Shown here: positions 3,788 through 24,650 of the stretch, one piece after another | Position numbering within the stretch: position 1 is the first letter of the stretch | Layout: every line of letters begins with the position of its first letter | Source of the DNA: a virus | Length of the DNA stretch: 43,862 nt | IMG/VR virus record: IMGVR_UViG_3300045988_028422 | Direction: 5' to 3' (one strand) | Notes under the pieces: generated by a model | Seen by the model: the letters and a program-made list of their open reading frames with translations, nothing else | Told to the model about the DNA's origin: nothing | Database searches by the model: none | Position numbers and translations under genes: made by a program

Positions 3788-4579
3788 GCGTAATACTGCC
3801 CATATAAAATTCCGTTAAAACGGGGAGAGCTTATATTAAGCAAATCCGTTGCTAAACACTTTTATTGAACGTATAACTACGTATATAATATGAACAACAC
3901 TAATAATCAAGAAATTTGGAAAGATGTCCCTGAATGGGAGAACCTTTATTGTGTCTCTAACATGGGGAGAATCTTCTCTAAACGCTATAATCGAATCAAA
4001 GCTCAGACTATGAATAACAATGGCTATGCCCGTTGTGATCTCTTTAGTAGTGCTAATGGTAAGATTCGGCGTAAGTCTTTGTATACTCATCAGCTTGTTG
4101 CTACGCTTTTTGTAAAAGGTAAGCAAGAAGGGTTGGTTGTAGACCATATCGATGGGGATAAGACTAATAACATGTACACTAATCTGCGATGGGTTACCCA
4201 AAGTGAGAACATTAAGAAGGGCTATCGGGAAACTGTTAGAGACCCTTCTACTAAGTTCAAGAAACAGCCAGTATATATTACCACAGAGCCTAAGGTGTAC
4301 TTTGATTCTATGACTGAATGTGCCCATAGTTTAGGGCTTCCTGTAGAGCGTATTAAAACAGTCTTACGCTTCTATAGTGGAAAGCTGCCTGAGCTTGGGA
4401 TTCGTGTTGTTCGATGTGAATGCCCAACGACTAACCCTGATGAATGTAAGGGTGTAGATTCAAGTGAATCGAAAAGCGGAACTGAGGCTCAGTCCTCAGA
4501 AGATATAGTCTAATCTCATAGGTGACTATGAGCAGTTTAATAAACGGTATAGGAGTAACGAACCTATATGAATATAATG
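3788..4579 (+). mobile_element. Group I intron in nrdD (792 nt) carrying an HNH homing endonuclease
   Basis: P1: exon tatgggt (3781-3787) pairs with gcccata (3798-3804), with U3787.G3798 wobble and a 10-nt loop. Core element aagatatagtc at 4500-4510. 3' hairpins at 4515-4532 and 4549-4567. Terminal G at 4579. Removal restores TPMG|CRAYLSPW. Confidence 0.85.
3890..4513 (+). CDS. Intron-encoded homing endonuclease, NUMOD4 + HNH_3 type
   Basis: WKDVPEWENLYCVSNMGRIFS (NUMOD4-like). VDHIDGDKTNNMYTNLRWVTQSEN (HNH). C-terminal HTH-like FDSMTECAHSLGLPVERIKTVL. Confidence 0.85.
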   Translation: MNNTNNQEIWKDVPEWENLYCVSNMGRIFSKRYNRIKAQTMNNNGYARCDLFSSANGKIRRKSLYTHQLVATLFVKGKQEGLVVDHIDGDKTNNMYTNLRWVTQSENIKKGYRETVRDPSTKFKKQPVYITTEPKVYFDSMTECAHSLGLPVERIKTVLRFYSGKLPELGIRVVRCECPTTNPDECKGVDSSESKSGTEAQSSEDIV

Positions 4580-5512
4580 TGTAGAGCTTACCTCAGTCCG
4601 TGGAAGGATCCCGAGAATGGTGAATGGATCACTAATGGTCGATGTAACATTGGGGCGGTGTCTCTTAATCTTCCCCTTATTTTGGCTTATTCTCAAAAGA
4701 ATAATGTAGATTTCTTCAGTGTTGTTGATGCACGACTTGAGACTATCCGTAATTTCTTTAAGAAACGCTATGCTCTCATTAGACACACTAAGGCATGCAC
4801 CAATCCTATGGCATTCATGCAAGGAGGTTTCTATAAGGGGAATCTTAAGGCAGACGATGAGATTGGCGATTTGGTAAACTACATGACTGCTTCCTTTGGT
4901 GTTACTGCTCTCAATGAACTTAATATCCTTGCTACTGGTAAGACACTCTATCAGGATCCTTGGTTTGCTGAGGGTGTACTTAAGCATATCAATGATAAGG
5001 TAGAGCAGTTCAAGAAAGAAGATGGATACCTTTATGCTGTCTATGGAGTGCCCGCAGAGAGTCTTTGTGGTGTACAAGCTAAACAATATGCTGAGTACAC
5101 CGGAGATAACCAGTTTGGAGAGTACTTCACTAACAGCTTCCATATGCACGTTAGTGAGCCTATCACCCCTTTTGAGAAACAGGATGCTGAATACAAGATG
5201 TTCCATATGTGCAACGGAGGCCACATTCAGTATGTCCGAGTGACTAACCCTGAGAACCTTCAGGCACTTAAGGCTCTGGTTCTCCGAGGCATGGAGAAGG
5301 GGTACTATCAAGGTATTAACTTTGATAGTGTCTATTGTGAAGACTGCCATAAGCACTCCACTAATGCTATGAACAAGTGCCCTCATTGTGGATCTACTAA
5401 CTTGTCTGTCATTAGTCGTGTTTGCGGATACCTAGGGTACACTAAAGCTAATGGTAGTACTCGTATGAACGATGCTAAGTTAGCTGAAATTAAAGACAGA
5501 GTATCAATGTAA
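4580..5512 (+). CDS. nrdD: Anaerobic ribonucleotide reductase NrdD, exon 2
   Basis: Starts CRAYLSPW. The C-terminus has a CxxC..CxxC Zn ribbon (CEDCHKHS..CPHCGS) and the glycyl-radical motif SRVCGYLGY. Confidence 0.9.
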   Translation, partial: CRAYLSPWKDPENGEWITNGRCNIGAVSLNLPLILAYSQKNNVDFFSVVDARLETIRNFFKKRYALIRHTKACTNPMAFMQGGFYKGNLKADDEIGDLVNYMTASFGVTALNELNILATGKTLYQDPWFAEGVLKHINDKVEQFKKEDGYLYAVYGVPAESLCGVQAKQYAEYTGDNQFGEYFTNSFHMHVSEPITPFEKQDAEYKMFHMCNGGHIQYVRVTNPENLQALKALVLRGMEKGYYQGINFDSVYCEDCHKHSTNAMNKCPHCGSTNLSVISRVCGYLGYTKANGSTRMNDAKLAEIKDRVSM

Positions 5513-5514
5513 CG

Positions 5515-6027
5515 ATGAACTACGCTAAGATAGATACCTGTAGTATGACTAATGGGGATGGCATGGGGGTAGACCTGTTTGTCTCAGGATGCTCCTTATG
5601 CTGCCGAGGGTGCTTCAATTGGAAAGCCCAGAATCCATTCTATGGAACACCGTTTACTGAGGACACTATAAACACCCTCATAGATGCTCTTAAATCGCCC
5701 TATATTGAACGATTGAGTATCCTAGGGGGTGACCCCTTAGAGCCCTACAATGAGCCAGTTGTAGAGCAAATCCTGAAGCGTGTGAGGGATGTCTATGGGA
5801 ACACCAAGAAGATATGGCTATGGACAGGACGTACCTATGAGGATATCAAAGATAAGCCCATATTGAATTATGTTGATGTTCTCATTGATGGTAAATTTGA
5901 ATTAGATAAAAAGGAAAAACATGAATACCACGGCTCAAGCAATCAGCGAGTCTTTAGAATATTCCACAGAGTCTCTTGCGGACACGATGCAACGGTTGTT
6001 CGACAAGGTTCACCCTTCAGGAACTAG
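5515..6027 (+). CDS. nrdG: Anaerobic RNR activating enzyme NrdG (radical SAM)
   Basis: VSGCSLCCRGCFNW cluster motif, SILGGDPLEP, and C-terminal YHGSSNQRV. About 20 aa longer at the C-terminus than the NrdG proteins I recall. Confidence 0.9.
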   Translation: MNYAKIDTCSMTNGDGMGVDLFVSGCSLCCRGCFNWKAQNPFYGTPFTEDTINTLIDALKSPYIERLSILGGDPLEPYNEPVVEQILKRVRDVYGNTKKIWLWTGRTYEDIKDKPILNYVDVLIDGKFELDKKEKHEYHGSSNQRVFRIFHRVSCGHDATVVRQGSPFRN

Positions 6028-6325
6028 TGGCAGACTTTATACTGATCTTATTAGAGAGGAGTTTGAAGAGTGGCTGCAGGAAGAATCTGGTACCCCTGAG
6101 GACTTCAAAGAGATTTGTGACCTTATCTGGGTATGCATTATGTATACTATCGAACATAAGTATCCTCTTGAGTTAGGCATGAAGGCTCTAGGGGAGGAGT
6201 TCGTTAGCAAGATGGTTGATGACAATGGTAACCTCTGCCCTACCTATAGAGCTGATGGTAAGATGCTTAAGGGAAAGCATTTCCACAAAGCAGACTTTAG
6301 GAAGCTCTTAGGTGTAGCTTCATGA
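5921..6325 (+). CDS. MazG-like all-alpha nucleoside triphosphate pyrophosphohydrolase (putative)
   Basis: Acidic helix motifs LIREEFEEWLQEE and EICDLIWVCIMY, and a C-terminal RADGKMLKGKHFHKADFRKLL. The start is uncertain: 5921 overlaps nrdG by 107 nt; the alternative ATG is at 5987. Confidence 0.55.
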   Translation: MNTTAQAISESLEYSTESLADTMQRLFDKVHPSGTSGRLYTDLIREEFEEWLQEESGTPEDFKEICDLIWVCIMYTIEHKYPLELGMKALGEEFVSKMVDDNGNLCPTYRADGKMLKGKHFHKADFRKLLGVAS

Positions 6326-6633
6326 GATTTCTAGATATAGGATCTACAGTTGAAGATGGGGGATCCAGAGTAAAGGATATTATTAGTATGTCTCCCCCTA
6401 TAGCTGTCACAGGGGTTACATTTTTAGGGGTAGCCCTTAGTGACTGGGTTTACATAGGTACCATTGTGTACACTATAGTAGGCATTATAACAATGATAAA
6501 GAAGCACTGGGTAGATCCATACCTAGCTGCTAGGAGAGTGAGAATCAATGAAGAACAAAGAACCATTAGACAGAGAGAGCTTGCTGAGCTTGATTCAGGA
6601 CAACATGTTGGAGAACATGCTGAACGACCTTAA
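6322..6633 (+). CDS. Holin, T7 gp17.5-like (class II)
   Basis: PPIAVTGVTFLGVALSDWVYIGTIVYTIVGIITMI parallels the recalled T7 gp17.5 APIVGTGV..LSLNEWFYVAAIAYTVVQI. ATGA overlap with the upstream gene. An alternative start lies at 6388. Confidence 0.65.
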   Translation: MRFLDIGSTVEDGGSRVKDIISMSPPIAVTGVTFLGVALSDWVYIGTIVYTIVGIITMIKKHWVDPYLAARRVRINEEQRTIRQRELAELDSGQHVGEHAERP

Positions 6634-6811
6634 AGACCCAGAGAAACGTAACCCTCAGCTATACAATGCGATTATCAAGGAGCTGCAGAGAAATGGCATC
6701 AATTGTGTCCCTAAGGCTGGCGAAGATGGAGACAATGCATTGGCATCCCTGCTGAAGGCTACTAAGGAGAACTTTGAGTTAGACTATGGAGCTAATGGCC
6801 TTGTCAACTAA
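6548..6811 (+). CDS. Terminase small subunit (T7 gp18-like)
   Basis: 87 aa. KDPEKRNPQLYNAIIKELQRNG matches the recalled T7 gp18 SDHERRSPQLYNAINKLLDRHK. aggag SD upstream. Confidence 0.8.
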   Translation: MKNKEPLDRESLLSLIQDNMLENMLNDLKDPEKRNPQLYNAIIKELQRNGINCVPKAGEDGDNALASLLKATKENFELDYGANGLVN

Positions 6812-8054
6812 AGCATTGGTTCCATACTTTAACAGTTTTCCACTGTTCTGCAGCTTAGTATGGCAGACTATTGGGTTGCCACAGACTACGCCTATTCAGG
6901 TAGATATTGCTAAGACACTGCAGCATCCCCCCAATGATCGATTCATTCTTATGGGGTTCCGTGGTGTAGCTAAGAGTTTCATTACATGTGCCTATGTTGT
7001 ATGGTGCCTATGGAAGAACCCTCAGCTCAAGATTATGGTTGTCTCAGCTAATAAAGAAAGAGCTGATGCAAACGCTACCTTTATTAAGAAGATCATTAAT
7101 GAGCTGCCATTCTTAGAGCACCTAAAGGCACGAGAGGGGCAACGGGATACTCAGAATCTCTTTGACGTTGGCCCGAGTAAACCCGATCATAGCCCCTCAG
7201 TTAAATCCGTAGGTATCAAAGGACAGCTTACAGGTTCTCGTGCAGATATCATTGTTAGTGATGACGTAGAGGTACCGAGCAACAGTTTCACTCAGGTATT
7301 GAGAGATCAGCTATTCGAGTTGGTGAAGGAGTTTGACGCTGTTATCAAACCTAATGGCACCATCATTTACCTTGGTACTCCTCAGAATGAAATGTCTCTC
7401 TATAATGAGCTTCAGGAGAGAGGGTACACTGCTATCATCTACCCTGCAAGATATCCTTATGACGATATCCAGAGAGCTAACTATGGTACACGTCTAGCTA
7501 AGTTCATTGCAGACAAGTATGACAGTGATCCTGAGAAGTACGCAGGTAAACCTACAGATCCCCTTAGATTCAATGAAGAGGATCTACAGAAACGAGAGCT
7601 GTCCTATAGAAGAGCAGGGTTCCTGCTGCAGTTCATGCTAGACACTAGCTTATCTGATGCTGATAAGTACCCATTGAGACTTAGAGATCTCATTGTAGGC
7701 ACCTTCAGTACAGATGAAGCACCTATGAAGCTTACATGGATGCCTGATCCTGCTCGTAAGGTCTCCCTTCAGGAAATCCCAAAGGTAATGGGATTAAAGG
7801 GAGATGCTTATTATATGTGCCATACAGCTTCCCCAGAGATGGAGAAGTATACCTATAAGATGATGTGTGTTGATCCGTCTGGCAGGGGGCGTGATGAGAC
7901 GGGATATTGTGTACTATACTATCTTAATGGTTACATCTACGTGATGGAAGCAGGAGGTCTCCTAGGGGGGTACTCTGATGTAGTCCTAAATAAACTAGCG
8001 AACACTGCTAAGAAATGGAAGGTTAATGAGGTAGTCATTGAAGGTAACTTCGGT
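6786..8054 (+). CDS. Terminase large subunit (T7 gp19-like), exon 1
   Basis: FRGVAKSFITCAYVVWCLWKNPQLKIMVVSANKERADANATFIKKII is close to T7 gp19. The exon ends ..VVIEGNFG. A possible true start is ATG 6795. Confidence 0.9.
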
Positions 8055-8770
8055 AAACAACATTGCCGAAATAAAACCCATTAAATTCGGTGAAACTCCC
8101 TATGGGACGATACCGAGCCAAGCCTAGAAATAGGAAGGTGTAGAGACTAATTGTAAGATCAAGTGATCTGAAAAAGTGGGGACAATAGCTATAGTAACAA
8201 TAAGATGCACGAATACAAGTATCACATAATATACAAGACAACAAACCTAATAAACGGTAAGATTTACGTAGGGATGCACTCTACGGATAATCTTAATGAT
8301 GGATACTTAGGTAGTGGTTGGATACTAAAGCAAGCCATTAAGAAGTACGGTAAAGAGAACTTTAAAAGAGAAGTTCTATTAGTTCTGTCGAACAGAAAAG
8401 AAGCTAGAGAAGTAGAGGCTTTACTGGTAGATACAGAGTTTATTGCTAGACCTAATACTTATAACCTTCAAGAAGGAGGTATGGGTGTAGAGAACCAGTG
8501 TGGTGAGAATAATCCAGCTTATGGTAAAGTTGCCAATAATGCTAAAGGTGTACTAGCAGAGCACCTTGATGGTAGACAACTTAAGTTTAATTCGATACAA
8601 GAATGTGCAGATACTCTAGGATTTGCTAGAGGTAATATAAGAAACCTCCTCTATAAGGGTATTCGTGGTAGAAGAGGTTGGAAGATTAGCTATTGTTAAG
8701 ATATAGTCCGATCTATACAGCAATGTATAGCCCCAAGGCATAAGCGTAACGAACTTATGTAAACATAATG
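8055..8770 (+). mobile_element. Group I intron in terL (716 nt) carrying a GIY-YIG homing endonuclease
   Basis: P1: ttcggt (8049-8054) pairs with gccgaa (8065-8070), with U8054.G8065 wobble and a 10-nt loop. R-like gtgtagagactaa at 8138-8150. Exact S-like aagatatagtcc at 8698-8709. Hairpins at 8713-8730 and 8739-8759. Terminal G at 8770. Splicing restores EGNFG|DGMY. Confidence 0.85.
8205..8699 (+). CDS. Intron-encoded GIY-YIG homing endonuclease (I-TevI-like architecture)
   Basis: YHIIYKTTNLINGKIYVGMH, KREVLLVLSNRKEAREVEALLV, NUMOD3-like ENNPAYGK, and C-terminal HTH FNSIQECADTLGFARGNIRNLL. Confidence 0.85.
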   Translation: MHEYKYHIIYKTTNLINGKIYVGMHSTDNLNDGYLGSGWILKQAIKKYGKENFKREVLLVLSNRKEAREVEALLVDTEFIARPNTYNLQEGGMGVENQCGENNPAYGKVANNAKGVLAEHLDGRQLKFNSIQECADTLGFARGNIRNLLYKGIRGRRGWKISYC

Positions 8771-9271
8771 GATGGCATGTACCTCAAGCTCTTTGAGCCT
8801 GTCCTTAGGAAGGTCTATAAGGAATGTGGTACTAAAGAAGTTAAGTCAACAGGACAGAAAGAAGTACGTATCATAGACACCCTAGAGCCTGTCCTAGGTA
8901 ACCATAAGATGATAGTTACCCCTGAGTGCATCAATAGGGATATCGATAGTGTCCCTGAAGGTGACTACAAGTATGCACTGTTCTATCAGATGACTAGGAT
9001 TACCTCAGACAGAGGAGCACTAGTTCACGATGATAGATTGGATGCCTTAGCAATAGGTGTCAAGTATTTAGTAGATTTCATGGGAATTGATGCTGATGAA
9101 GGAATAAATGAAGTAACTTCAGAATGGCTAGAGGAATCTTTGGAAGCCTTTCATGGATTTATTACAAGAAAAATAGGAATAAATACAATTACAGAAAATG
9201 TAAGAGAATCAGGTACTTCCAAGGGGTTCAATAAATACAAATATTCAGAGGGATACAAGTTTACAAGATAA
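8771..9271 (+). CDS. Terminase large subunit, exon 2
   Basis: DGMYLKLFEPVL..STGQKEVRIIDTLEPVLGNHKMIV..HDDRLDALAIGVKYL parallels the T7 gp19 C-terminal nuclease region. The spliced product is 589 aa; I recall T7 gp19 as 586 aa. Confidence 0.9.
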   Translation, partial: DGMYLKLFEPVLRKVYKECGTKEVKSTGQKEVRIIDTLEPVLGNHKMIVTPECINRDIDSVPEGDYKYALFYQMTRITSDRGALVHDDRLDALAIGVKYLVDFMGIDADEGINEVTSEWLEESLEAFHGFITRKIGINTITENVRESGTSKGFNKYKYSEGYKFTR

Positions 9272-9304
9272 AATCATCCCTATAAGGGTGAAGTGACTAC
9301 TCCG

Positions 9305-9330
9305 AATAAAATCTCCACTCCCAGAAGGGG
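9305..9330 (+). promoter_or_regulatory. Phage-RNAP promoter candidate (phiOR-like position after terL)
   Basis: aataaaatctccactcccagaagggg shares AAAATCTCCACT with the 18202 and 15951 copies. The initiation region diverges. Confidence 0.5.
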
Positions 9331-9399
9331 CCAGAAAAAGGTATATATAAGATATCTACCTAGCTCCTTCTGATAAAAATAATAAAAAAAAAATAAATA

Positions 9400-10130
9400 G
9401 GGTTACCTATAGACCCTTTGAGATATTCTAAAGGGGCTCATAAAGACTGACTTTAGATTTTTCTTTATGTTTCCTTTTAGTTAACTCAAAGTATCCATAT
9501 GAGACCATTGAATCATAAACTAGTAGTAGCTATCAAGATCATCATTATTATTGTCCTTTTAGTGGTTTCCTTATTGAATGGTGATGTAGGGACAGTTGAT
9601 GCACTACTTAGAGCTGCTGTAGGTGGATTACTATAGCCCCTTTAAGGGGTGCCTATAGTTAGCCTATAGACCATTTAAGGTGTACCTTAAGTTAACCCTT
9701 AGGGTACGCCTCCTTATATTAGCTTGACGATAACTTGTGGTTGACTTTAGGGTAACAACAGATACCTTTAGGTAAACTAAGGGTCACCTTGATTAGAATT
9801 TTATAATAAATTTGTAAGGTGGCACCTTAAGACAGACACGGGCGCGTGTCCCCCGTAGGGTGCCTTGAGATTCCTCATTGCTGCTCGTATACACCTGCTG
9901 CCTAATTTACGTATATATGCGTAGGCGTGCGTAAGGGCGCCCCAGGGGTAGCTTAGGGTAGCTTTAGGGTAACCTCGGGGGCTATTGTTTACATTTGGTT
10001 CATCTATGGTTTTTCGGGGTAACATAGGTATTTCTACTTATATCATATCTGTTGCTCCCTGTTGGCAACCTTAAGACAACCCGAAGGCCTACCCGATGAC
10101 TATTATTAACATAGCGTTGGGGCACCGAGG
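9400..10130. repeat. Non-coding region rich in short CCTTAAG / CTTTAGGG / CCTATAGACC repeats and mini-palindromes; probable concatemer junction / terminal-repeat region
   Basis: cctatagacc appears twice (9406, 9663). Palindromes include cccctttaagggg, acccttagggt and aaggtggcacctt. tagcttagggtagctttagggtaacc is also present. There is no credible ORF. Confidence 0.5.
9499..9636 (+). CDS. Small hydrophobic ORF (45 aa), positional analogue of T7 gene 19.5
   Basis: MRPLNHKLVVAIKIIIIIVLLVVSLLNGDVGTVDALLRAAVGGLL. No clear SD. It lies between the phiOR-like promoter and the repeat-rich region. Confidence 0.3.
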   Translation: MRPLNHKLVVAIKIIIIIVLLVVSLLNGDVGTVDALLRAAVGGLL

Positions 10131-10160
10131 GTATCCCATGAACAGGGGATAGGGGAGGGC

Positions 10161-10189
10161 TTGACATGGGGCTTGTGGTCTGTTAAAGT
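10161..10189 (+). promoter_or_regulatory. Sigma70-type early promoter 1
   Basis: TTGACA (10161-10166), 17-nt spacer, TAAAGT (10184-10189). Confidence 0.6.
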
Positions 10190-18226: not shown

Positions 18227-18235
18227 GAATAAACT

Positions 18236-18661
18236 ATGTGGGAGAAGGTAGCCATACTAGCAGTAGTCTTAGCTTTCATTACAGGTGTCATTGGTGGCAG
18301 GAAATATGAAAGCAATAAGCACACTGAAGAGCTTGTAGCTATTCAAGCTCAGAATGAAGTCAAACTAAAGGAGCTAACAGCTAGGAAAGATGAAACAATT
18401 AGCCTTATCATTAAAAGTAAAGCTTCTGATGCTGCTGACTTGGCTGCCCTTACTAAACATGTTAATCGGGTGCAGTACAACCTCAGTAGCACCGATAGAA
18501 AGCTTCTCAGGGATGCCTCAGGAGCTAATGCAAAGTCAGTCGAAGCGTGTAGACAGTTACTCTCAGAGAGTGCAGGACTTCATAGAGAAGGTGTTGAATT
18601 ACTCAGAGACCTCAACACGAGACTAGAGGCTTTTATCAAACTGAATTCTACCTCTCCGTAA
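18236..18661 (+). CDS. i-spanin (Rz-like)
   Basis: N-terminal TM segment (VAILAVVLAFITGVIGG) followed by coiled-coil-like sequence. It contains an embedded lipoprotein ORF. Confidence 0.6.
   Translation: MWEKVAILAVVLAFITGVIGGRKYESNKHTEELVAIQAQNEVKLKELTARKDETISLIIKSKASDAADLAALTKHVNRVQYNLSSTDRKLLRDASGANAKSVEACRQLLSESAGLHREGVELLRDLNTRLEAFIKLNSTSP
18390..18626 (+). CDS. o-spanin (Rz1-like), fully embedded in +1 frame
   Basis: Signal peptide MKQLALSLKVKLLMLLTWLPLLNMLIG|C with an LIGC lipobox. agga lies just upstream of the ATG. Confidence 0.55.
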   Translation: MKQLALSLKVKLLMLLTWLPLLNMLIGCSTTSVAPIESFSGMPQELMQSQSKRVDSYSQRVQDFIEKVLNYSETSTRD

Positions 18662-18728
18662 TATAATTGGACAATATACCATTCTTCTAAAGTGGCTTAT
18701 GTAGGTTCGAATCCTACCGGAGAGACCA
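18652..18728 (+). tRNA. tRNA-Arg (anticodon UCU)
   Basis: Hand-folded cloverleaf. Acceptor ctctccg/cggagag; D atat/atat; anticodon stem ccatt/agtgg with loop cttctaa; T arm gtagg-ttcgaat-cctac; encoded CCA. The 5' end overlaps the Rz stop codon. Confidence 0.85.
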
Positions 18729-18735
18729 ATATTTT

Positions 18736-18820
18736 AGGTGATTGACGGAATTGGCAGACGTTCTATGCTTAAACCATAGTGCCGAATGGCGTAGGGGTTC
18801 GAGTCCCCTATCACCTACCA
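18736..18820 (+). tRNA. tRNA-Leu (anticodon UAA), class II with long variable arm
   Basis: Acceptor aggtgat/atcacct; 3-bp D stem; anticodon stem ctatg/catag with loop cttaaac; variable arm gcc-gaat-ggc; T arm agggg-ttcgagt-cccct; encoded CCA. Confidence 0.85.
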
Positions 18821-18862
18821 AAGACACACCATAGTTAACACACACTAAAGGAAACCACAATT

Positions 18863-19033
18863 ATGGAACCTATTGAACGTAAATCAGATTGGCATTATCC
18901 TGACGGAGATTCATACCGTGATGAGCTTCATAGTAATCAGAAAGAAAAGTGGGAGTATGAATATGAAGCTTTTCTAGATTCTGAAGATGATCCTGATGAT
19001 GAGATTGATGAGGAGGACGATGAAGATGAGTGA
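18863..19033 (+). CDS. Small protein with poly-acidic C-terminus (56 aa)
   Basis: The leader ctaaaggaaacca is the same as at the RNAP gene. Translation: MEPIERKSDWHYPDGDSYRDELHSNQKEKWEYEYEAFLDSEDDPDDEIDEEDDEDE. Not in the ORF track. Confidence 0.55.
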   Translation: MEPIERKSDWHYPDGDSYRDELHSNQKEKWEYEYEAFLDSEDDPDDEIDEEDDEDE

Positions 19034-19871
19034 TAATGGTCAAATTCCTGGGTTTTGTGTAGGTAACTCTTTGGCTATCCTTCGAGCACGCAACAAAGAT
19101 CTCTATACGTTTGAATTGGAGTATCCTCGGTTCATCCATAGTGAATTCATGACACACCGGATGTTCTCTCGGAATGCCTCTAGCTCGCGTGCGGTTCCTG
19201 TAGAGAAAACCATTCAGAACATCCTTAATAAGCCTTGGGCACCTTTGAAGGTCTATAAGAATTGTAAGGGTATGCAAGGCAAGGAGCTCATTAGTGATGA
19301 TGAGTATGATGTCTTTTGCGAAGAGTGGCAAGATGCTGCATTTAAGGCAATTGAAGTTGCTCATAAGATGATTGACAATGGGTACCATAAGCAGCATATC
19401 AATCGTATCCTAGAGCCTTTCACAAAGATTAAAGTTATTGTTACTGCCACTGAGTGGGATAACTTCTTTAATCTCCGGTTGTCTCCTGATGCTGACCCAG
19501 AGATTCAATCTCTTGCTATGGCTATTAAGAAAGCTATGGACAACGCTTGGAGTACCTTCATCAATGTTCATGGTGGGCGTACGCTTCCATATGTGACCTT
19601 TGATGAGATGGATAACATTGAGGATAATCGTATTCTCACGCTTATCTCTGCTGCACGTTGTGCCCGAGTGTCTTATCTTAATCACGATGGTTCTAAGCCG
19701 GATATCCTAAAGGATCTTGCTCTTGCTAAACGACTTATCAATAGTGGGCATATGACACCTTTTGAACATCAGTGTCAAGATGTTTTCGATGCAGGTTTCT
19801 ACTATAACCTTCGTGATTCCCAAAGTGCACGCTATATGCTAGATCATGGAATCGACCTTTCTGCACCATGA
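19020..19871 (+). CDS. thyX: Flavin-dependent thymidylate synthase ThyX
   Basis: ThyX signature FMTHRMFSRNASSSRAVP (RHRxxSxxxxSxR type). The start was chosen at ATG 19020, after the gaggagg SD; the track ORF begins at 18987. Confidence 0.85.
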   Translation: MKMSDNGQIPGFCVGNSLAILRARNKDLYTFELEYPRFIHSEFMTHRMFSRNASSSRAVPVEKTIQNILNKPWAPLKVYKNCKGMQGKELISDDEYDVFCEEWQDAAFKAIEVAHKMIDNGYHKQHINRILEPFTKIKVIVTATEWDNFFNLRLSPDADPEIQSLAMAIKKAMDNAWSTFINVHGGRTLPYVTFDEMDNIEDNRILTLISAARCARVSYLNHDGSKPDILKDLALAKRLINSGHMTPFEHQCQDVFDAGFYYNLRDSQSARYMLDHGIDLSAP

Positions 19872-21471
19872 GCCTTGTCCTAATTGTGGCTCTAGCGATG
19901 CTCTTGCTGTTTTTAGTGACGGTCATAAGTATTGCTATAGCTGTACCACTTATTTTAGACCTGATGGATCTTTGGACAAACCCAAGGGGGTAAAGATGTC
20001 AGCATCCAATATGATTCCTTTAGAGGAACTACAGATCTCTGCTTTGCCTGCTAGGGGTATCACTAAAGATACTTGTACTAAGCTAAAGTATTTCGTGGGG
20101 GAGTATAAGGGTAACCCTTGTCAAGTGGCTTGCTACTATGATGACAAGGGTTCTCTTGTAGGACAAAAGCTTAGATTCCCTGATAAGTCTTTTGCTGTAC
20201 TAGGGAAGATCTCTGGGTGCCTCTATGGTTCTCAGTTGTGGTCTAGTGGTAAGAAACTAGTAATCACTGAAGGTGAGATAGATGCCCTTAGTGTGTCTCA
20301 AGTGCAAGGCAATAAGTGGCCTGTAGTGTCTATCCCTAATGGTGCTCAGGCTGCTAGGAAAGCCATTGAAGCTAACCTAGAGTATCTAAATAACTTTGAA
20401 GAGATCATCCTAATGTTTGATATGGATGATCCGGGACGTAAAGCAAGTGAAGATTGTGCAAAGATTCTCCCATTGGGTAAAGCGTACATTGCTAATCTAC
20501 CTCTTAAGGATCCTAATGAGTGTCTTAAGGCTGGGAGATCAGGTGACCTTGTATCGGCCATATGGAACGCTAAGCCTTACAGACCTGATGGAATTGTTTC
20601 AGGTCAAGATCTCTATGAGAAGTGTGTGGAAGGTCTTGATAGTCTTAAAGACAGTGTGGCCTATCCTTTTCAAGCTCTCCAAAGCAAGACAAACGGTGCT
20701 AGACACGGTGAGCTTTATGTCATTACCTCAGGATCAGGTATGGGAAAATCCACTCTACTCAGAGAGCTTGAATATTTCTTTGGTGTCTCTAAAGGCGAGA
20801 CTTGTGGCGTGGTTGCTCTTGAGGAATCTACAGCAAAGACGGGACTTGAACTTATGTCCATCTTTCTTAATAGACGTCTCATTATCAGTGTTGATCACGA
20901 TAGTGTTTCTAAAGAAGAACTCAAGAGTGCTTTTGATGCCACGATTGGCAACGGAAAGTTCTTCCTCTATGATCACTTTGGATCACTTGATTCTGGGAAT
21001 CTGCTTAGTAAGCTTAGATACATGATCGTAGCTTTAGGCTGCAAGAGAATCTTCCTAGACCATATCTCTATTGTTGTCTCTGGTATGGACAATAGTGACG
21101 ATGGCGGGGAGCGTAAAGCTATTGACAAACTAATGACAAACCTTAGATCCCTTGTTGAAGAAACAGGGTGTACTATGTATGTCGTTAGTCACCTTAAGCG
21201 CCCCGATAAGAAAGGTCACGAAGAAGGAGCTCAGGTGTCTTTAAGTCAACTTAGAGGTTCCGGTGCTATCGCTCAGCTTGCAGATATGGTGATTGGCCTG
21301 GAGAGGAATCAACAGGGAGATAATCCTAATGTCATGGCCCTTAGAGTACTTAAGAATCGTTTCAGTGGTTTGACTGGTATAGGTGGTTATCTCTATTATG
21401 ATCCCGAAACAGGCCGACTAAAGGACTACGATTGCCCATTTGAGGATGACTTAGGTGACTGTCCATTCTAG
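19846..21471 (+). CDS. DNA primase/helicase (T7 gp4-like)
   Basis: Zn finger CPNCGSSDALAVFSDGHKYCYSC. TOPRIM ITEGEIDALS..ILMFDMDDPGRKA. Walker A SGSGMGKST. FLDHISIV, and RGSGAIAQLADMVIGLERNQQGD. Confidence 0.95.
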   Translation: MESTFLHHEPCPNCGSSDALAVFSDGHKYCYSCTTYFRPDGSLDKPKGVKMSASNMIPLEELQISALPARGITKDTCTKLKYFVGEYKGNPCQVACYYDDKGSLVGQKLRFPDKSFAVLGKISGCLYGSQLWSSGKKLVITEGEIDALSVSQVQGNKWPVVSIPNGAQAARKAIEANLEYLNNFEEIILMFDMDDPGRKASEDCAKILPLGKAYIANLPLKDPNECLKAGRSGDLVSAIWNAKPYRPDGIVSGQDLYEKCVEGLDSLKDSVAYPFQALQSKTNGARHGELYVITSGSGMGKSTLLRELEYFFGVSKGETCGVVALEESTAKTGLELMSIFLNRRLIISVDHDSVSKEELKSAFDATIGNGKFFLYDHFGSLDSGNLLSKLRYMIVALGCKRIFLDHISIVVSGMDNSDDGGERKAIDKLMTNLRSLVEETGCTMYVVSHLKRPDKKGHEEGAQVSLSQLRGSGAIAQLADMVIGLERNQQGDNPNVMALRVLKNRFSGLTGIGGYLYYDPETGRLKDYDCPFEDDLGDCPF

Positions 21472-22264
21472 TTTCTATAATGATTTTGATCCTAATGCCT
21501 GCAGGTGGTTAGACAATCTGCAGAGGCACCATAAGATCCCTGAGGGTGTAGTATCCTCTATGTCTATTACCAATATCACTGAGGTAGGTGACTATCAGTA
21601 TGCTCATTTTTTTGCAGGGATTGGTGGATGGCCTTTAGCGTTCCAATTAGCTCAGCTTAAGACTGACCTAAAGGTTTGGAGTGGGTCATGCCCTTGTCAG
21701 CCCTTCAGTGCTGCAGGCAAACAAAAAGGAGTTAATGATGAAAGAGACCTATGGCCGGTCTTCAATAAGCTCATACAACAAGAGAGACCTGATATCATCT
21801 TTGGGGAGCAAGTTGCAACAGCGATTAGACACGGTTGGCTTGACAGGCTCACCTCTGACCTCGAAAGTAATGGTTACCTCGTGCTCTCTTCCGTACTATC
21901 AGCTAACTTGCTTGGGGCTCCGCATGAGAGACGTAGGCTATTCTGGGGAGCCTTCAATATGGAGAACCCCAACCGTCTCAGACACACAAGGTGGTGCCCG
22001 TTGGGCGATCCCTCGTGGTGCTCTGGTTACCTTCAAGAGCACTCTGAAGAACGCTTATCTAGCAGCAAATCATTTTGGGAGAACGGAGAGTGGCTTGAGG
22101 GTACAGAAGGGAAAAGCTTTCTTGTTGAACCCAGAACTTTCCCGCTTTGTAATGGGGTACCCTACAGATTGGAGCTGTTACGTGGCTACGGAAATGCCAT
22201 AGTTCCTCAATTGGGTGCCTTGTTCATTACATCTTTTCTTGACACAATCTTGGCAAAGCTATAG
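21455..22264 (+). CDS. DNA (cytosine-5) methyltransferase, compact phage type, no partner endonuclease
   Basis: FFAGIGGWPLAF (motif I), SCPCQPFSAAGK (motif IV), FGEQV (VI), APHERRRLFW (VIII), GNAIVPQ (X). The N-terminus SFYNDFDPNACRWLDNL is typical of a phage Dcm family as I recall it. Confidence 0.8.
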   Translation: MTVHSSFYNDFDPNACRWLDNLQRHHKIPEGVVSSMSITNITEVGDYQYAHFFAGIGGWPLAFQLAQLKTDLKVWSGSCPCQPFSAAGKQKGVNDERDLWPVFNKLIQQERPDIIFGEQVATAIRHGWLDRLTSDLESNGYLVLSSVLSANLLGAPHERRRLFWGAFNMENPNRLRHTRWCPLGDPSWCSGYLQEHSEERLSSSKSFWENGEWLEGTEGKSFLVEPRTFPLCNGVPYRLELLRGYGNAIVPQLGALFITSFLDTILAKL

Positions 22265-22277
22265 AAGGATATAGAAA

Positions 22278-24029
22278 ATGCTTCAACTATACGACAAACA
22301 TATCATTACTGATATCGAAACCAATGGATTATTGGATACCGTAACTAAATTCTGGTGCGCATGGATCTACGATAGTGCCTCTCAGGAGTACAAAGGATAT
22401 AAGGATCTCGATGAATACATTGATGCTCTTAATGTATATGGTACTAGCGGTTATAACTTGGTATTTCACAATGGTATCAAGTACGATGTCCCTTGTCTTA
22501 AGCGACTATCAGGTAAAGACTTTGTATTTGATCCTAGGGATTGTGTTATCGATACGCTTGTCTTTGCTCGTCTAGTTTGGAGCAACATTAAAGATCTCGA
22601 TATGGGCTTAATTCGTTCTGGGAGGCTTCCCAAGGATCTCTTTGGTTCCCATTCATTGAAAGCCTATGGCTATCGCCTGCGTGAACTAAAGGGCACCTAT
22701 GGGGAACAGGAGGAGGCTTGGGACAGCTTCTCAGAAGAGATGTATCAGTACAACTATCAGGACGTAGTTGTTACTAAGATGCTTTTTGATAAACTCTTAG
22801 GCAAAGGTTACCCTTGGGAGGCCGTACAGCTTGAGCATGATATCGCATGGGTGATGGCTAAGCAGGAGCGTAATGGTTTTGTCTTTAATAGAGATAAAGC
22901 TGTAGTTCTCTATAGTGAGCTTGCAGGGCGCAGAGATGAGTTGACTAAAGAGCTGCAAGAGAGTGTCCCTCCTCTATTGACTGGCTATAAGACCTACAAG
23001 AGAGACAACGCTAAGAAAGGTATTAAAGCAGGAGTACAATATCCTGTTTATGAAACCTTTAATCCCAATAGTCGACAACAGATTGCTAAGGTTCTCATTG
23101 AGCAAGGGTGGGAGCCTCAGGAGGTGACTGATACAGGGTTGCCTAAGGTTGATGAAGAAACTCTAAAGACTGCTAAAGATATTCCTATGACTAGCAAGAT
23201 CTTAGAACTTCTCATGTTAAACAAACGTATTGGTCAGCTTGCTGAGGGTAGTAATGCGTGGCTAAAGCTGATGAAGGAGGATCCTAATGATCACCTATGG
23301 CGTATTCATGGCTCCGTTAACCCTAATGGGGCTGTCACTGGCCGTGCAACTCATAGTTATCCTAATGTTGCTCAAGTTCCTGCCAATAGAGCTCCTTACG
23401 GGAAATTATGCAGAGAATTATTTACTGTTCCACAAGGATGGTATGAGGCTGGTATTGATGCTTCTGGTCTTGAGCTGCGTTGCCTTGGGCATTTCCTATC
23501 CCCATATGATAATGGTGCATATGTAAATGAAATCCTCTCAGGGGATATCCATACGCATAACCAAAAGATGGCAGGGCTTGCTACACGTGACCAAGCGAAA
23601 ACTATGATCTACTGCATGATGTACGGAGGAGGAGACGCTAAGCTTGGTGAGGTTATCGGGGGAGACGCTAGGGCAGGTAAGGCACTTAAAGAGAAGTTCT
23701 TTAAGGCTATTCCTGCTTATAAAGATCTAGTAGAGGATATCTCTCATAGTCTTGTCTCCTCTTCAGAGTGGGTAGGGGGTACTCATAAAGTGAAGTGGCG
23801 TAAGCGGTATCATCCTGATAGTCCTCAGCTTGAGATTACTCATTGTGTCTTAGGTTTGGACAGACGTGTCATCTATGTGCGCTCTGAGCACTCAGCTTTG
23901 AATACCCTATTGCAATCTGCAGGTGCTCTCATTTGTAAGAAATGGGTGTGTCTTGTAGAAGAGAATATGCGTAAGGCTGGCTATAAGCACAGCTGGGATG
24001 GAGACTTTGCCATGATGGCATGGGTGCAT
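22278..24029 (+). CDS. DNA polymerase (T7 gp5-like, family A), exon 1
   Basis: Exo I motif ITDIETNGL. Pol motifs ..GIDASGLELRCLGH, QAKTMIYCMMYGGG. The exon ends ..FAMMAWVH, just before the motif C HDE. Confidence 0.9.
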
Positions 24030-24650
24030 AAACTTCATTGTGCACGTTAAAGTAGGTTAATTCGGGGAAACCCCTCTGGGGCAATCCCGAGCTAAGCATT
24101 GGAGGAACTATGCGTGGTAAACCTATGGTCTTGATTAAGGATCAAAACGGTTGCATAGTCTCCACATCACATAGACTGAATAAAGATGGTTATCTAAGGA
24201 TTAGCGATCACAGGTATAAGGGTAAAGGTAGAAAGCCCTTGATTATGGCTCACAGGCTTGTATGGGAAGAAGCTAATGGTGAAATCCCTGAAGGCTATGA
24301 GATTCATCACAAGTGTCATAATCGTGCCTGTTGTAACCTTAGTCATCTTGAGCTAGTTAAGATCGTCGATCATAAAGTCGAACATAACTCCACTAGATAT
24401 GCTGATAGAAAGGCTAAAGCTAAGGAGTATTGGAAACTTTATAAGTGTACGGGTACTAAGCTAGGTGAAGTCTTTGGTGTCTCGTTTTCCTCTGCCTGTA
24501 AGTGGATTCGAGAATGGAAGTGTAGAGACTAGGTGAAAACCGTAGGGGCTAGGGGTGAGATTCCCCTAGTCTCGAAATGCCTACTACAGCTAATACCAAT
24601 AGGCTGTAAAGAGATAGTCCGACACCCGTAGCAATATGGGAAACGGTAAG
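24030..24650 (+). mobile_element. Group I intron in the DNA polymerase gene (621 nt) carrying an HNH homing endonuclease
   Basis: P1: gtgcat (24024-24029) pairs with gtgcac (24040-24045), with U24029.G24040 wobble and a 10-nt loop. S-like aagagatagtcc at 24609-24620. Hairpin at 24625-24640. Terminal G at 24650. Splicing restores AWVH|DEVQVACR. Confidence 0.85.
24110..24532 (+). CDS. Intron-encoded HNH homing endonuclease
   Basis: HRLVWEEANGEIPEGYEIHHKCHNRACCNLSHLELVKIVDHKVEHN. C-terminal HTH-like GTKLGEVFGVSFSSACKWIREW. Confidence 0.85.
   Translation: MRGKPMVLIKDQNGCIVSTSHRLNKDGYLRISDHRYKGKGRKPLIMAHRLVWEEANGEIPEGYEIHHKCHNRACCNLSHLELVKIVDHKVEHNSTRYADRKAKAKEYWKLYKCTGTKLGEVFGVSFSSACKWIREWKCRD

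What the first reader, a model, noticed from the sequence alone, without database searches (positions are those of the whole stretch)
3788..24650. One group I ribozyme family has colonised three essential genes, each copy carrying a different homing-endonuclease family
The three introns (nrdD 3788-4579, terL 8055-8770, DNA polymerase 24030-24650) share readable sequence blocks and show compensatory stem changes.
- All three have a 6-7-bp P1 closed by a U.G wobble, with a loop of exactly 10 nt. The loops are aaacaacatt (terL), aaacttcatt (DNAP) and gcgtaatact (nrdD).
- terL 8081-8100 (ttaaattcggtgaaactccc) aligns with DNAP 24057-24074 (ttaattcggggaaacccc).
- All three carry an AAGAUAUAGUCC-like element (4500-4510, 8698-8709, 24609-24620).
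- The next hairpin keeps the loop agcaat in terL (ctatac/gtatag) and DNAP (cccgt/atggg) while the stems differ.
- The 3'-terminal hairpin keeps the loop (a/c)gtaacgaa in nrdD (atagg/cctat) and terL (cataag/cttatg) while the stems covary. It is followed by near-identical tails ending ..ataatG.
- The endonuclease ORFs are unrelated (NUMOD4/HNH_3, GIY-YIG, HNH) and sit at different places in the ribozyme.

This looks like a modular ribozyme scaffold that has exchanged endonuclease cargo and retargeted to new sites within a single 44-kb lytic genome. I do not recall this being described for T7-like phages.
Basis: partly seen in the sequence, partly recalled or inferred. Interest (0 to 1): 0.8.

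Follow-up and report, generated by a model that had tools for sequence, protein, structure and literature searches.

The report
Three T4-type introns in T7-like phage
A 44-kb T7-like gut phage carries three self-splicing group I introns, each with its own homing-endonuclease gene, in its nrdD, terminase and DNA polymerase genes; they belong to the classic phage T4 intron family and each was probably picked up separately from other phages rather than copied within this genome.

Summary
Window 3788-4579 (nrdD), 8055-8770 (terL) and 24030-24650 (DNAP) are precise insertions. A close relative, MT835557 (80-98% identical in different segments), lacks exactly these bases in terL and DNAP. Removing them restores intact NrdD, TerL and DNAP.

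All three fold as subgroup IA2-type group I ribozymes. On 11 homologous introns, 91.8% of cells pair (30-42% in slid controls), and 35 of 45 pairs show compensatory changes.

- The "family" is the classic T4 td/nrdB/nrdD family.
- The three copies are 48-60% identical to each other and never cluster (0/500 bootstraps).
- Each has a closer relative elsewhere:
  - DNAP: the published T7-like gene 5 intron, same site, endonuclease 58% identical.
  - nrdD: the Felixounavirus nrdD intron, same site.
  - terL: the K1E ribozyme, and the same site and endonuclease as Ralstonia phage BOESR1.
- Two endonucleases share the HNH_3 domain, and two sit in the same P6 loop.

New here: metagenomic relatives of this phage show ten polymorphic intron sites (four nrdD, four terL, two DNAP). 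One contig carries at least six introns, and one carries a copy of the terL intron whose endonuclease gene has decayed.

Verdict: new members of a known kind.

The parts
3788..4579 (+). nrdD group I intron (792 nt), IA2 type. It is inserted after the GGT (Gly402) codon, directly before the Cys codon of ..TPMG|CRAY..
   Evidence: A precise insertion relative to MT835557. The exon join gives a 712-aa NrdD. RF00028 scores 25.8 bits, E = 2.8e-4.
3781..3804 (+). nrdD intron P1. The exon strand tatgggt (3781-3787) pairs with the guide gcccata (3798-3804). There is a U.G pair at the 5' splice site and a 10-nt loop, gcgtaatact.
   Evidence: Direct reading. P1 covaries across 11 introns.
3890..4513 (+). 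nrdD intron endonuclease ORF (207 aa), NUMOD4 + HNH_3, I-HmuI-like. It starts in the P6a loop, runs through P6a', P7, P7.1, P7.2, P3' and P8, and stops right after P7'.
   Evidence: Pfam hits NUMOD4 (4.4e-12) and HNH_3 (1.1e-12). PDB 1U3E at 5.2e-22. 35% identical to the Felixounavirus nrdD-intron endonuclease.
4408..4579 (+). nrdD intron 3' core:
- P6a' 4408-4415
- P7 4429-4433
- P7.1 4434-4438 / 4449-4453
- GUA 4454-4456
- P7.2 4457-4461 / 4466-4470
- P3' 4476-4481
- P8 4483-4487 / 4494-4498
- J8/7 and P7' 4499-4510
- P9 4515-4532 (GUGA loop)
- P9.1 4548-4568
- terminal G 4579
   Evidence: 73% identical to the Felixounavirus nrdD intron. Aligns with the T4 nrdD and td cores.
8055..8770 (+). 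terL group I intron (716 nt). It is inserted after GGT (Gly423), before the Asp codon of ..EGNFG|DGMY.. in the T7-type nuclease domain. It lacks P7.1.
   Evidence: Exactly this stretch is absent from MT835557. The exon join gives a 589-aa TerL. RF00028 scores 38.7 and 28.0 bits. A near-identical copy with the ORF deleted (L036 15194-15499) scores 75.2 bits against a gathering score of 50.
8205..8699 (+). terL intron endonuclease ORF (164 aa), GIY-YIG (Seg-like) + NUMOD-like domain, in the P8 loop. P8 is acaatagct 8182-8190 / agctattgt 8688-8696.
   Evidence: Weak Pfam GIY-YIG and SegE hits plus I-HmuI_NUMOD-like. phrog_314 at 2.9e-37. 62% identical to the endonuclease in the BOESR1 terL intron and 40-56% to T4-like Seg-type endonucleases.
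24030..24650 (+). DNA polymerase group I intron (621 nt), IA2 type. It is inserted between the His and Asp codons of ..AWVH|DEVQ.., which I identify from general knowledge as motif C. It has no P9.1 and a short tail.
   Evidence: Exactly this stretch is absent from MT835557. The exon join gives a 635-aa DNAP. RF00028 scores 34.2 bits, E = 7.8e-7. 67-74% nucleotide identity to the gene 5 introns of PT2, 13a and many T7-like phages.
24110..24532 (+). DNAP intron endonuclease ORF (140 aa), HNH_3, in the P6 loop. Its 3' end overlaps P6', J6/7 and P7 (gacta 24527-24531).
   Evidence: Pfam HNH_3 at 2.8e-17. 58% identical to the phage 13a intron HNH. The same exact protein is on 24 contigs read.
2582..5512 (+). 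nrdD host gene (exons 2582-3787 and 4580-5512), class III ribonucleotide reductase.
   Evidence: Pfam ATP-cone, NRDD and Gly_radical. Spliced translation.
6786..9271 (+). terL host gene (exons 6786-8054 and 8771-9271).
   Evidence: Pfam Terminase-T7_RNaseH-like, split across the junction. Spliced translation.
22278..24806 (+). DNA polymerase host gene (exons 22278-24029 and 24651-24806), family A.
   Evidence: Pfam DNA_pol_A. Spliced translation.

Best explanation
The window is the complete genome, about 43.8 kb, of a T7-like podovirus from gut metagenomes. Three of its essential genes (nrdD, terL, DNA polymerase) are each interrupted by a mobile group I intron of the phage T4 td/nrdB/nrdD type (subgroup IA2 architecture, no P2).

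Splicing (inferred from the anatomy). In the transcript each intron folds into the P1-P9 ribozyme. The internal guide sequence pairs with the last 6-7 exon bases, ending in a U.G pair. A free guanosine attacks after that U. The terminal G of the intron then occupies the P7 site, and the exons are ligated, helped by a short P10. This restores the reading frame.

Mobility (inferred). Each intron also carries a homing-endonuclease gene in a peripheral loop:
- nrdD: I-HmuI-like HNH in P6a.
- terL: Seg-like GIY-YIG in P8.
- DNAP: an HNH related to the phage 13a intron endonuclease, in P6.

During mixed infection the enzyme cuts or nicks the intron-less allele of a co-infecting relative. Repair then copies the intron in.

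Origin (inferred from similarity). The three introns were acquired independently from a pool of related introns circulating among T7-like, SP6-like, Felix O1-like and T4-like phages. They were not duplicated within this genome.

What is shown and what is not. Shown: the precise insertions, the restored reading frames, the conserved and covarying structure, the presence/absence polymorphism in close relatives, and the nearest relatives. Not shown: catalysis, endonuclease activity and direction of transfer.
For: Precise insertions and intact spliced genes.

Structure:
- RNAalifold recovers P1, P3, P4, P5 and P9.
- For the hand-placed helices on 11 introns, 91.8% of cells pair against 30-42% in slid controls. 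35 of 45 pairs have changes on both sides, and 0 of 500 shuffles reach the observed values. P7 (gacua/uaguc) is invariant.
- P7.1-GUA-P7.2 is present in the nrdD and DNAP introns, and L9 is a GNRA loop.

Covariance-model support:
- RF00028 hits all three below threshold.
- It passes threshold on relatives with uninterrupted cores: K1E 63.6 bits and D1-2 55.7 bits.
- The ORF-deleted copy of the window's own terL intron scores 75.2 bits.

Same family as T4 introns: the alignment. W_nrdD is 62-65% identical to T4 nrdD and td.

Independent origins:
- The identity matrices and NJ bootstraps never recover the three window introns as a clade (0/500).
- W_DNAP + 13a + PT2 is recovered in 100% of bootstraps and W_terL + K1E in 90%.
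- The same nearest neighbours appear in the identity ranking and single NJ tree of the 19-intron alignment, which was not bootstrapped.
- Same-site relatives exist with homologous endonucleases.

Mobility:
- In metagenomic relatives whose TerL is 93-100% identical across its pieces, terL is intron-free, or has one, two or three introns in different combinations.
- MT835557 has intron-less alleles whose junction sequence is almost unchanged.
- One endonuclease gene is decayed.

Not an assembly artefact: the same proteins and arrangement appear in many independent assemblies.
Against: - No RNA or biochemical data, so splicing and cleavage are inferred.
- At Rfam's gathering threshold the window itself gives no group I hit.
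- The core alignments are short (about 180-190 columns) and were cut by hand around the ORFs. Differences of about 10 points in identity are only roughly two standard errors. In particular, the placement of W_nrdD is weak (W_nrdD + D1-2 in 37% of bootstraps).
- W_terL is a mosaic. Its core is K1E-like, while its site and endonuclease are BOESR1-like. Its history therefore includes recombination or retargeting that I cannot order.
- The terL intron lacks P7.1, so it departs from textbook IA2.
- I found no clear co-conversion tract from a Felix O1-like donor in the nrdD flanks.
Confidence: 0.8

Rival explanations
1. One ribozyme scaffold spread within this genome to three new sites and exchanged its endonuclease cargo on the way.
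For: - All three align to one family and share P1 loop length, J8/7-P7' and P9 features.
- The terL and DNAP introns share the L1 end cauu. It can form the same 4-bp P10 with 3' exons that both start GATG.
- In the wider set, related ribozymes do sit at different terL sites.
- Endonuclease type and position differ between related ribozymes. K1E has a GIY-YIG 3' of P9, while the window has an unrelated GIY-YIG in P8.
Against: - The window introns are 48-60% identical to each other against 64-72% to their best outside relatives.
- The three-way clade and both pairwise clades tested were recovered in 0 of 500 bootstraps, and the 19-intron tree does not group them either.
- Each intron has a relative at the same site in another phage with a homologous endonuclease.
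- The shared blocks are also in T4 td, nrdB and nrdD introns.
Confidence: 0.08
2. The terL intron is a recombinant. An endonuclease specific for the ..GGT|GATGG.. site (BOESR1 type, in P8) became associated with a K1E-type ribozyme core. Alternatively, a K1E-type intron moved from terL site 365/368 to site 423 and then captured that endonuclease. This is compatible with the main explanation for the other two introns.
For: - W_terL's core is 71-72% identical to K1E, which sits at a different site with a non-homologous endonuclease (BLASTP E = 0.37).
- It is only 62-64% identical to BOESR1, which sits at the same site with a 62%-identical endonuclease in the same P8 loop.
- W_terL and K1E both lack P7.1 and share ..guagagacuaaNuguaag.., whereas BOESR1 has P7.1 and ..gcaacgacua...
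- The same lineage carries a K1E-site intron at aa 368.
Against: The identity difference rests on fewer than 200 columns. P7.1 loss could be convergent. No intermediate was found.
Confidence: 0.3
3. The insertions are not spliced. The genes are simply split by free-standing endonuclease genes and work as two polypeptides, or the insertions are inteins or assembly chimeras.
For: Gene callers report the halves as separate ORFs. Split genes of this kind exist in other phages.
Against: - About 200-290 nt of conserved, covarying ribozyme flank each ORF.
- There are in-frame stop codons just inside each intron, so these are not inteins.
- The splits fall inside conserved motifs (VH|DE, G|DG, G|C).
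- ORF-less and ORF-decayed versions keep the ribozyme.
- Many independent assemblies agree.
Confidence: 0.02

Closest known systems
Phage T4 td, nrdB and nrdD (sunY) introns: three homologous IA2 introns with I-TevI, I-TevII and I-TevIII
   Same: - One intron family in three essential genes of one phage, each with a different endonuclease: GIY-YIG, GIY-YIG and HNH in T4 (annotation).
- The cores align base for base. Shared elements are aaaugccNaacgacua, GUA-P7.2 gggucaagYgacYc, gauauagucu, a P9 with a GNRA loop, a P9.1 loop uaRcga, and a tail ..gaacaNaaug.
- ORFs lie in P6a or 3' of P9, as seen from the sequences.
- nrdD is a shared host gene.
   Different: - The host is a 44-kb T7-like podovirus, not a 169-kb myovirus.
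- The T4 nrdD intron is at a different site (about aa 274 in window numbering, against aa 402).
- terL and DNAP are not intron hosts in T4.
- The terL intron carries its ORF in P8 and lacks P7.1.
Gene 5 (DNA polymerase) intron of T7-like coliphages PhiI, W31 and 13a, with an HNH endonuclease (I-TslI) (Bonocora & Shub 2004, as cited in PMC3428280 and PMC8351571)
   Same: - Same site: 881 in E. coli Pol I numbering according to PMC3428280, and ..gggtgcat|gatga.. in 13a, PT2 and the window.
- The ribozyme is 66-68% identical in the core and forms a 100%-bootstrap clade.
- The endonuclease is 58% identical to the 13a one.
- The ORF is in P6/P6a, there is no P2, and P7.1-GUA-P7.2 is present.
   Different: The host phage is a distant T7-like lineage (DNAP 45-59% identical to 13a in the two pieces). 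J8/7 reads gagauaguc instead of gauauaguc.
terL introns of Autographiviridae: K1E gene 40A/40.5/40B and Lelliottia phage phD2B (PMC4246154); Ralstonia phage BOESR1
   Same: - K1E: closest ribozyme core (71-72%), no P7.1, 10-nt P1 loop starting aaac.
- BOESR1: identical insertion site (aacttcggt|..|gatgg), endonuclease 62% identical and also in the P8 loop.
   Different: - K1E: different site (about aa 365), and a non-homologous GIY-YIG ORF placed 3' of P9.
- BOESR1: different core subtype (has P7.1, acgacua in place of agagacua).
Felixounavirus nrdD intron (split nrdD reported in PMC4837284; annotated as a join in phage JohannRWettstein)
   Same: - Same site (..ccgatgggt|..|tgtagagc..).
- The 3' core is 72-74% identical in blastn.
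- The HNH ORF is 35% identical.
- An ORF-less form exists (D1-2, 316 nt, RF00028 55.7 bits).
   Different: The host is a myovirus. The P1 loop is 14 nt, with a long (8-bp) P10. The overall core is only 63-65% identical.

Membership tests
Group I intron (Rfam RF00028) | P1 formed by the 5' exon end and an internal guide sequence, with U.G at the splice site, and a terminal G at the 3' end. | tested here: met
   All three introns show this. On the alignment, the U.G column holds in 9 of 11 introns; the other two are misaligned because they have a P2. The other P1 pairs covary with the exon sequence.
Group I intron (Rfam RF00028) | Conserved core helices P3-P9, including the P3/P7 pseudoknot, supported by covariation. 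| tested here: met
   P3 is 100% paired with 6 of 6 pairs compensatory. P4, P5 and P9 also covary, and P7 is invariant. P6 and P8 were placed by hand in each intron but were not tested by covariation, because their lengths differ.
Group I intron (Rfam RF00028) | A score at or above the curated gathering score of the covariance model. | tested here: inconclusive
   The window copies score 25.8, 38.7 (+28.0) and 34.2 bits against a gathering score of 50, because ORFs of about 0.4-0.6 kb interrupt the cores. The near-identical ORF-deleted terL copy scores 75.2 bits. K1E scores 63.6 and D1-2 scores 55.7.
Group I intron (Rfam RF00028) | Guanosine-dependent self-splicing. | not testable with these tools
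   Needs in vitro transcription and splicing, or RT-PCR.
Subgroup IA2 (T4 type) | Extra helices P7.1 and P7.2 between P7 and P3', linked by G-U-A (the criterion as stated in PMC3428280). | tested here: met
   - nrdD: accct/agggt - gta - gattc/gaatc.
- DNAP: ggt/acc - gta - an 11-bp P7.2.
- terL: only gta + P7.2, with no P7.1, like K1E.

So the feature is met for two introns, and the terL intron is a reduced variant.
T7-like gene 5 intron (PhiI/W31/13a type) | Insertion between the His and Asp codons at Pol I site 881; an HNH ORF in P6a; a homologous ribozyme. | tested here: met
   The junction sequence is the same as in 13a and PT2. The clade has 100% bootstrap support. The endonuclease is 58% identical to the 13a one. 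The ORF starts in the P6 loop. The PhiI and W31 sequences themselves were not available. 13a is used as their stand-in on the assumption that it carries the same intron.
HNH homing endonuclease, I-HmuI type (nrdD ORF) | NUMOD4 N-terminal motif + HNH_3 catalytic domain + C-terminal DNA-binding modules. | tested here: met
   Pfam NUMOD4 and HNH_3 are above cut-off, with a weak I-HmuI_NUMOD-like hit. PDB 1U3E at E = 5.2e-22, covering residues 3-157 of the chain.
GIY-YIG homing endonuclease (terL ORF) | GIY-YIG catalytic domain. | tested here: inconclusive
   The Pfam GIY-YIG and SegE_GIY-YIG hits are below the curated cut-offs (18.9 and 23.1 bits). However, phrog_314 'homing endonuclease' scores 2.9e-37, and tblastn finds 40-62% identity to annotated GIY-YIG/Seg-like endonucleases. 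The motifs ..HIIY.. and ..KIYVG.. are readable in the sequence. No solved structure matched.
Mobile (homing) intron | Presence/absence polymorphism at the same site among close relatives, with intact target sequence in the empty allele. | tested here: met
   MT835557 and contigs L030/L031 have empty terL sites. L029, L032 and L036 carry other combinations. Actual cleavage and gene conversion were not tested.

The most novel reading that the evidence does not exclude
This T7-like gut phage lineage may be an unusually dense and active hot spot for T4-type group I introns.

- Across near-identical metagenomic relatives there are at least ten polymorphic insertion sites in just three genes: NrdD after aa ~217, 402, ~561 and ~686; TerL after aa 160, 180, 368 and 423; DNAP after aa 448 and 584.
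- A single 44.8-kb contig carries at least six introns in nrdD and terL alone.
- Every stage of the homing cycle is visible: empty site, intron with an intact endonuclease gene, intron with a decayed endonuclease gene, and ORF-less intron.
- Related ribozymes at different terL sites, and the same endonuclease on different ribozyme cores, would make it a natural system for watching intron retargeting and endonuclease capture.

I found no description of this in the searchable literature. A 2012 paper calls group I introns rare in T7-like phages.
Probability: 0.55. Interest if true: 0.55.

Novelty: new member of a known kind. Interest (0 to 1): 0.35.

Why it matters
For annotation: nrdD, terL and DNA polymerase in this abundant gut phage lineage are single genes, not fragments. 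Gene callers split them into two to five pieces each, which breaks TerL- and DNAP-based phylogenies and pangenome counts.

For biology: the same T4-type intron pool circulates among very different virulent phages (T7-like, SP6-like, Felix O1-like, T4-like). A 44-kb genome can tolerate three, and in relatives six or more, such elements inside conserved, probably catalytic, motifs.

The polymorphic population offers a ready-made natural experiment on the homing cycle and on how endonucleases and ribozymes are re-assorted. It does not reveal a new mechanism.

Tried and rejected
- Rfam at gathering threshold on the whole window found only two tRNAs. I needed E-value mode on 1-kb slices and relatives without ORFs.
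- Megablast against the phage collection found only MT835557 and a short PT2 hit. The informative relatives came from the 'distant' and protein modes.
- I looked for a co-conversion tract around the nrdD site. The flanks are more diverged from MT835557 than the rest of the gene, but they are not closer to Felixounavirus sequence, and the region is variable at the protein level. The result is inconclusive.
- The Bonocora & Shub 2004 and 2009 papers are not held. I rely on what PMC3428280 and PMC8351571 say about them.
- PhiI and W31 sequences were not fetched; 13a stands in for them.
- BLASTP between the window terL endonuclease and K1E gp40.5, between the two window HNH ORFs, and between the nrdD HNH and the MT835557 terL-180 HNH gave no significant pairwise similarity.
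- PDB sequence search found nothing for the GIY-YIG ORF or the DNAP HNH ORF.
- I did not build my own covariance model. Alignment A2 exceeds the 400-column limit, and the Rfam result on the ORF-deleted copy made it unnecessary.
- Inteins, group II introns and assembly chimeras were considered and dismissed (see the rival explanations).

Full report
**What the window is.** The first 43 bases repeat exactly at the end, so the window is a circularly closed assembly of about 43.8 kb with 42.6% G+C. It encodes:
- a single-subunit RNA polymerase, a T7-type connector, a Gp10A-like capsid protein, a nozzle protein, a T7 holin and a T7 helicase-primase;
- an anaerobic ribonucleotide reductase pair, NrdD and NrdG;
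- two tRNAs, Arg-UCU and Leu-UAA.

It is therefore a T7-like (Autographiviridae-like) phage. The closest public record is MT835557, an unannotated 42.9-kb contig from human faeces that is 80-98% identical in different segments.

**Checking the observation.** Blastn against MT835557 shows that the relative lacks exactly window 8055-8770 and exactly 24030-24650. At nrdD, 913 window bases face 118 in the relative, which fits an insertion of 792 bases at 3788-4579.

| Protein | Length | Junction |
|---|---|---|
| NrdD | 712 aa | ..TPMG\|CRAY.. |
| TerL | 589 aa | ..EGNFG\|DGMY.. |
| DNAP | 635 aa | ..AWVH\|DEVQ.. |

The Pfam profile positions abut across the nrdD and terL junctions.

The exact motif GAKATAGTCY occurs only at these three places in the window. 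Rfam's group I model hits all three with E-values from 3e-4 to 3e-8. It stays below the gathering score because each core is interrupted by an ORF of about 0.4-0.6 kb.

**Structure.** I collected homologous introns and cut out their ORFs:
- MT835557 terL;
- K1E terL;
- 13a DNAP;
- the two Aeromonas phage PT2 DNAP introns;
- Salmonella phage D1-2 nrdD;
- T4 td, nrdB and nrdD;
- later, Ralstonia phage BOESR1 terL and six more from metagenomic relatives.

The structural tests gave:
- RNAalifold on nine cores recovers P1, P3, P4, P5 and P9, and 27 of its 32 predicted pairs show compensatory changes.
- On eleven cores with hand-placed helices, including the P3/P7 pseudoknot, 91.8% of cells pair against 30-42% when the partners are slid.
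- In that set, 35 of 45 pairs change on both sides, and no shuffle out of 500 reaches the observed values. P7 (gacua/uaguc) never varies.

The anatomy:
- There is no P2.
- P7.1-GUA-P7.2 lies between P7 and P3' in the nrdD and DNAP introns. This is the IA2 hallmark as stated in PMC3428280. The terL intron has only GUA-P7.2, like K1E.
- L9 is a GNRA tetraloop.
- The nrdD and terL introns have a P9.1 hairpin. The DNAP intron does not.
- The terL and DNAP P1 loops both end in cauu. This can pair with 3' exons that both start GATG, giving a 4-bp P10. That explains why those two loops look alike.

Relatives with uninterrupted cores pass Rfam's threshold: K1E at 63.6 bits and D1-2 at 55.7 bits. A metagenomic copy of the window's own terL intron is about 98% identical in the ribozyme. 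Its endonuclease gene is reduced to a 5' stub with a nonsense codon. This copy scores 75.2 bits against a gathering score of 50.

**The endonuclease genes.**

| Intron | ORF | Type | Place in ribozyme | Key evidence |
|---|---|---|---|---|
| nrdD | 3890-4513 | NUMOD4 + HNH_3, I-HmuI-like | Starts in the P6a loop, reads through P7, P7.1, P7.2, P3' and P8, stops just after P7' | PDB 1U3E, E = 5e-22 |
| terL | 8205-8699 | Seg-like GIY-YIG with a NUMOD-like tail | P8 loop | phrog_314, 2.9e-37; Pfam below cut-off |
| DNAP | 24110-24532 | HNH_3 | P6 loop, 3' end overlaps P6'/J6/7/P7 | Pfam HNH_3, 2.8e-17 |

The two HNH proteins are not similar pairwise. They do share HNH_3 and several PHROG families. 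"Three unrelated families at three different places" is therefore overstated. There are two catalytic families and two loop positions.

**What the family is.** The T4 td, nrdB and nrdD introns align with the window introns block for block. The shared blocks include J6/7-P7, GUA-P7.2 (gggucaagYgacYc), gauauagucu, P9, the P9.1 loop uaRcga and the tail ..gaacaNaaug.

**Are the three copies each other's relatives?** No.
- Over about 180-190 core columns they are 48-60% identical to one another.
- W_DNAP is 66-68% identical to the introns of coliphage 13a and Aeromonas phage PT2 that sit at the same ..gggtgcat|gatga.. site. That clade has 100% bootstrap support, and the endonuclease is 58% identical to the 13a one. 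This is the gene 5 intron first described in T7-like phages PhiI and W31 in 2004, at Pol I site 881 (PMC3428280, PMC8351571). Blastn finds it in 49 phage records.
- W_nrdD is 62-65% identical to T4 nrdD, T4 td and the Felixounavirus nrdD intron. The Felixounavirus intron is at the same ..atgggt|tgtagagc.. site. In phages such as JohannRWettstein it carries a 35%-identical HNH gene. The split nrdD of these phages is in the literature (PMC4837284). The T4 nrdD intron is at a different site.
- W_terL is 71-72% identical to the K1E gene 40 intron (90% bootstrap). That intron sits about 58 codons upstream and carries a non-homologous GIY-YIG gene 3' of P9. The same site and a 62%-identical endonuclease in the same P8 loop occur in Ralstonia phage BOESR1. 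The BOESR1 core is of another subtype and only 62-64% identical. A split terL with an intron in K1E and phD2B was noted in 2014 (PMC4246154).
- A clade of the three window introns, or of W_terL with either of the other two, appeared in 0 of 500 bootstraps. The 19-intron tree, which was not bootstrapped, does not group them either.

The best reading is three independent acquisitions from a shared pool. The terL intron has a mosaic history.

**Beyond the finding.** The exact nrdD-intron endonuclease is indexed in 521 blocks of the metagenome collection, on contigs of 43-45 kb. This is a common lineage. In contigs whose TerL pieces are 93-100% identical to the window's, the same three genes carry other introns.

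| Gene | Insertion sites (window numbering) |
|---|---|
| NrdD | after aa ~217, 402, ~561, ~686 |
| TerL | after aa 160, 180, 368, 423 |
| DNAP | after aa 448, 584 |

- Contig L032 (44.8 kb) has four introns in nrdD and two in terL.
- L036 has three in terL, with RF00028 scores of 49.2, 53.1 and 75.2 bits.
- L030 and L031 have an intron-free terL.
- Some copies have full endonuclease genes, some truncated ones, and some none.
- The gagauaguc variant of J8/7 in the window DNAP intron recurs in three other introns of the lineage, so it is evidently tolerated.
- In a 19-intron tree, the terL introns at sites 160, 368 and 423 and the K1E intron cluster together. Movement to new sites within terL probably did happen at the population level, but not among the three introns of this finding.

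**Mechanism.** By analogy with the T4 and T7-like introns of the same family, each intron should self-splice by the two-step guanosine-initiated pathway, and its endonuclease should drive homing into empty alleles during co-infection.
- Shown here: precise insertions, restored reading frames, conserved and covarying cores, empty alleles with nearly unchanged target sequence, and a decayed endonuclease copy.
- Inferred: catalysis, cleavage specificity and direction of transfer.

**Verdict.** It is wrong about within-genome spread, and wrong that this is unknown in T7-like phages. These are new members of a known kind. The most interesting point is the lineage-wide density and polymorphism of such introns, which deserves a proper census.

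Noticed in passing
L032 7900-17400; L036 12800-16200; L022 1011-4200; L027-L036 generally: Metagenomic relatives of this phage carry further group I introns in the same three genes. Together they define ten polymorphic sites: NrdD after aa ~217, 402, ~561 and ~686; TerL after aa 160, 180, 368 and 423; DNAP after aa 448 and 584. One 44.8-kb contig has six introns in nrdD and terL alone.
   Followed up: partly
L036 15194-15499 (equivalent to window 8055-8770): A copy of the window terL intron with a ribozyme about 98% identical. Its GIY-YIG gene is reduced to a 5' stub with a tat-to-tag nonsense change and a large deletion. It scores 75.2 bits on RF00028.
   Followed up: yes
L001 5394-6142 (MT835557), equivalent to window position 7327: The close relative lacks all three window introns. 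It has a different group I intron, with a 156-aa ORF that I did not scan (Pfam HNH is on record for the same-size ORF in L027 and L029), in terL after aa 180.
   Followed up: yes
window 5029-5245: MT835557 lacks these 217 bases of nrdD exon 2, which breaks the reading frame there. The gap spans position ~5057, where relatives carry the nrdD-561 intron. It could be an imprecise intron loss, a pseudogene or an assembly error in an 'UNVERIFIED' record.
   Followed up: no
window 21455-22264: A C-5 cytosine DNA methyltransferase ORF lies between the helicase-primase and DNAP genes. MT835557 lacks it (776 nt against 5 nt). Contigs L021 and L024 have an Endonuclease VII-like ORF in this slot, and L025 has nothing there. 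It looks like a variable cargo slot.
   Followed up: partly
window 1-43 and 43820-43862: An exact 43-nt overlap of the two ends. The window is a circularly closed assembly of a complete genome of about 43.8 kb.
   Followed up: yes
window 18652-18728 and 18736-18820: Two adjacent tRNA genes, Arg (UCU) and Leu (UAA).
   Followed up: yes
L003 2058-2735 (Aeromonas phage PT2): The PT2 DNA polymerase has two group I introns: one between the ..AKTF and IY.. codons and one at the His|Asp site. Only 'homing endonuclease' and polymerase fragments are annotated. The 3' part of the upstream intron is very like the T4 nrdB intron.
   Followed up: partly
window 24782-24814, against L002 3381-3810: MT835557 has about 430 extra bases just downstream of the DNAP stop codon that the window lacks. 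I did not examine them.
   Followed up: no
window 2582-6027: An anaerobic (class III) ribonucleotide reductase pair, nrdD and nrdG, sits between the tail-fibre region and the holin/terminase genes of a T7-like genome. This would fit an anaerobic gut host.
   Followed up: no
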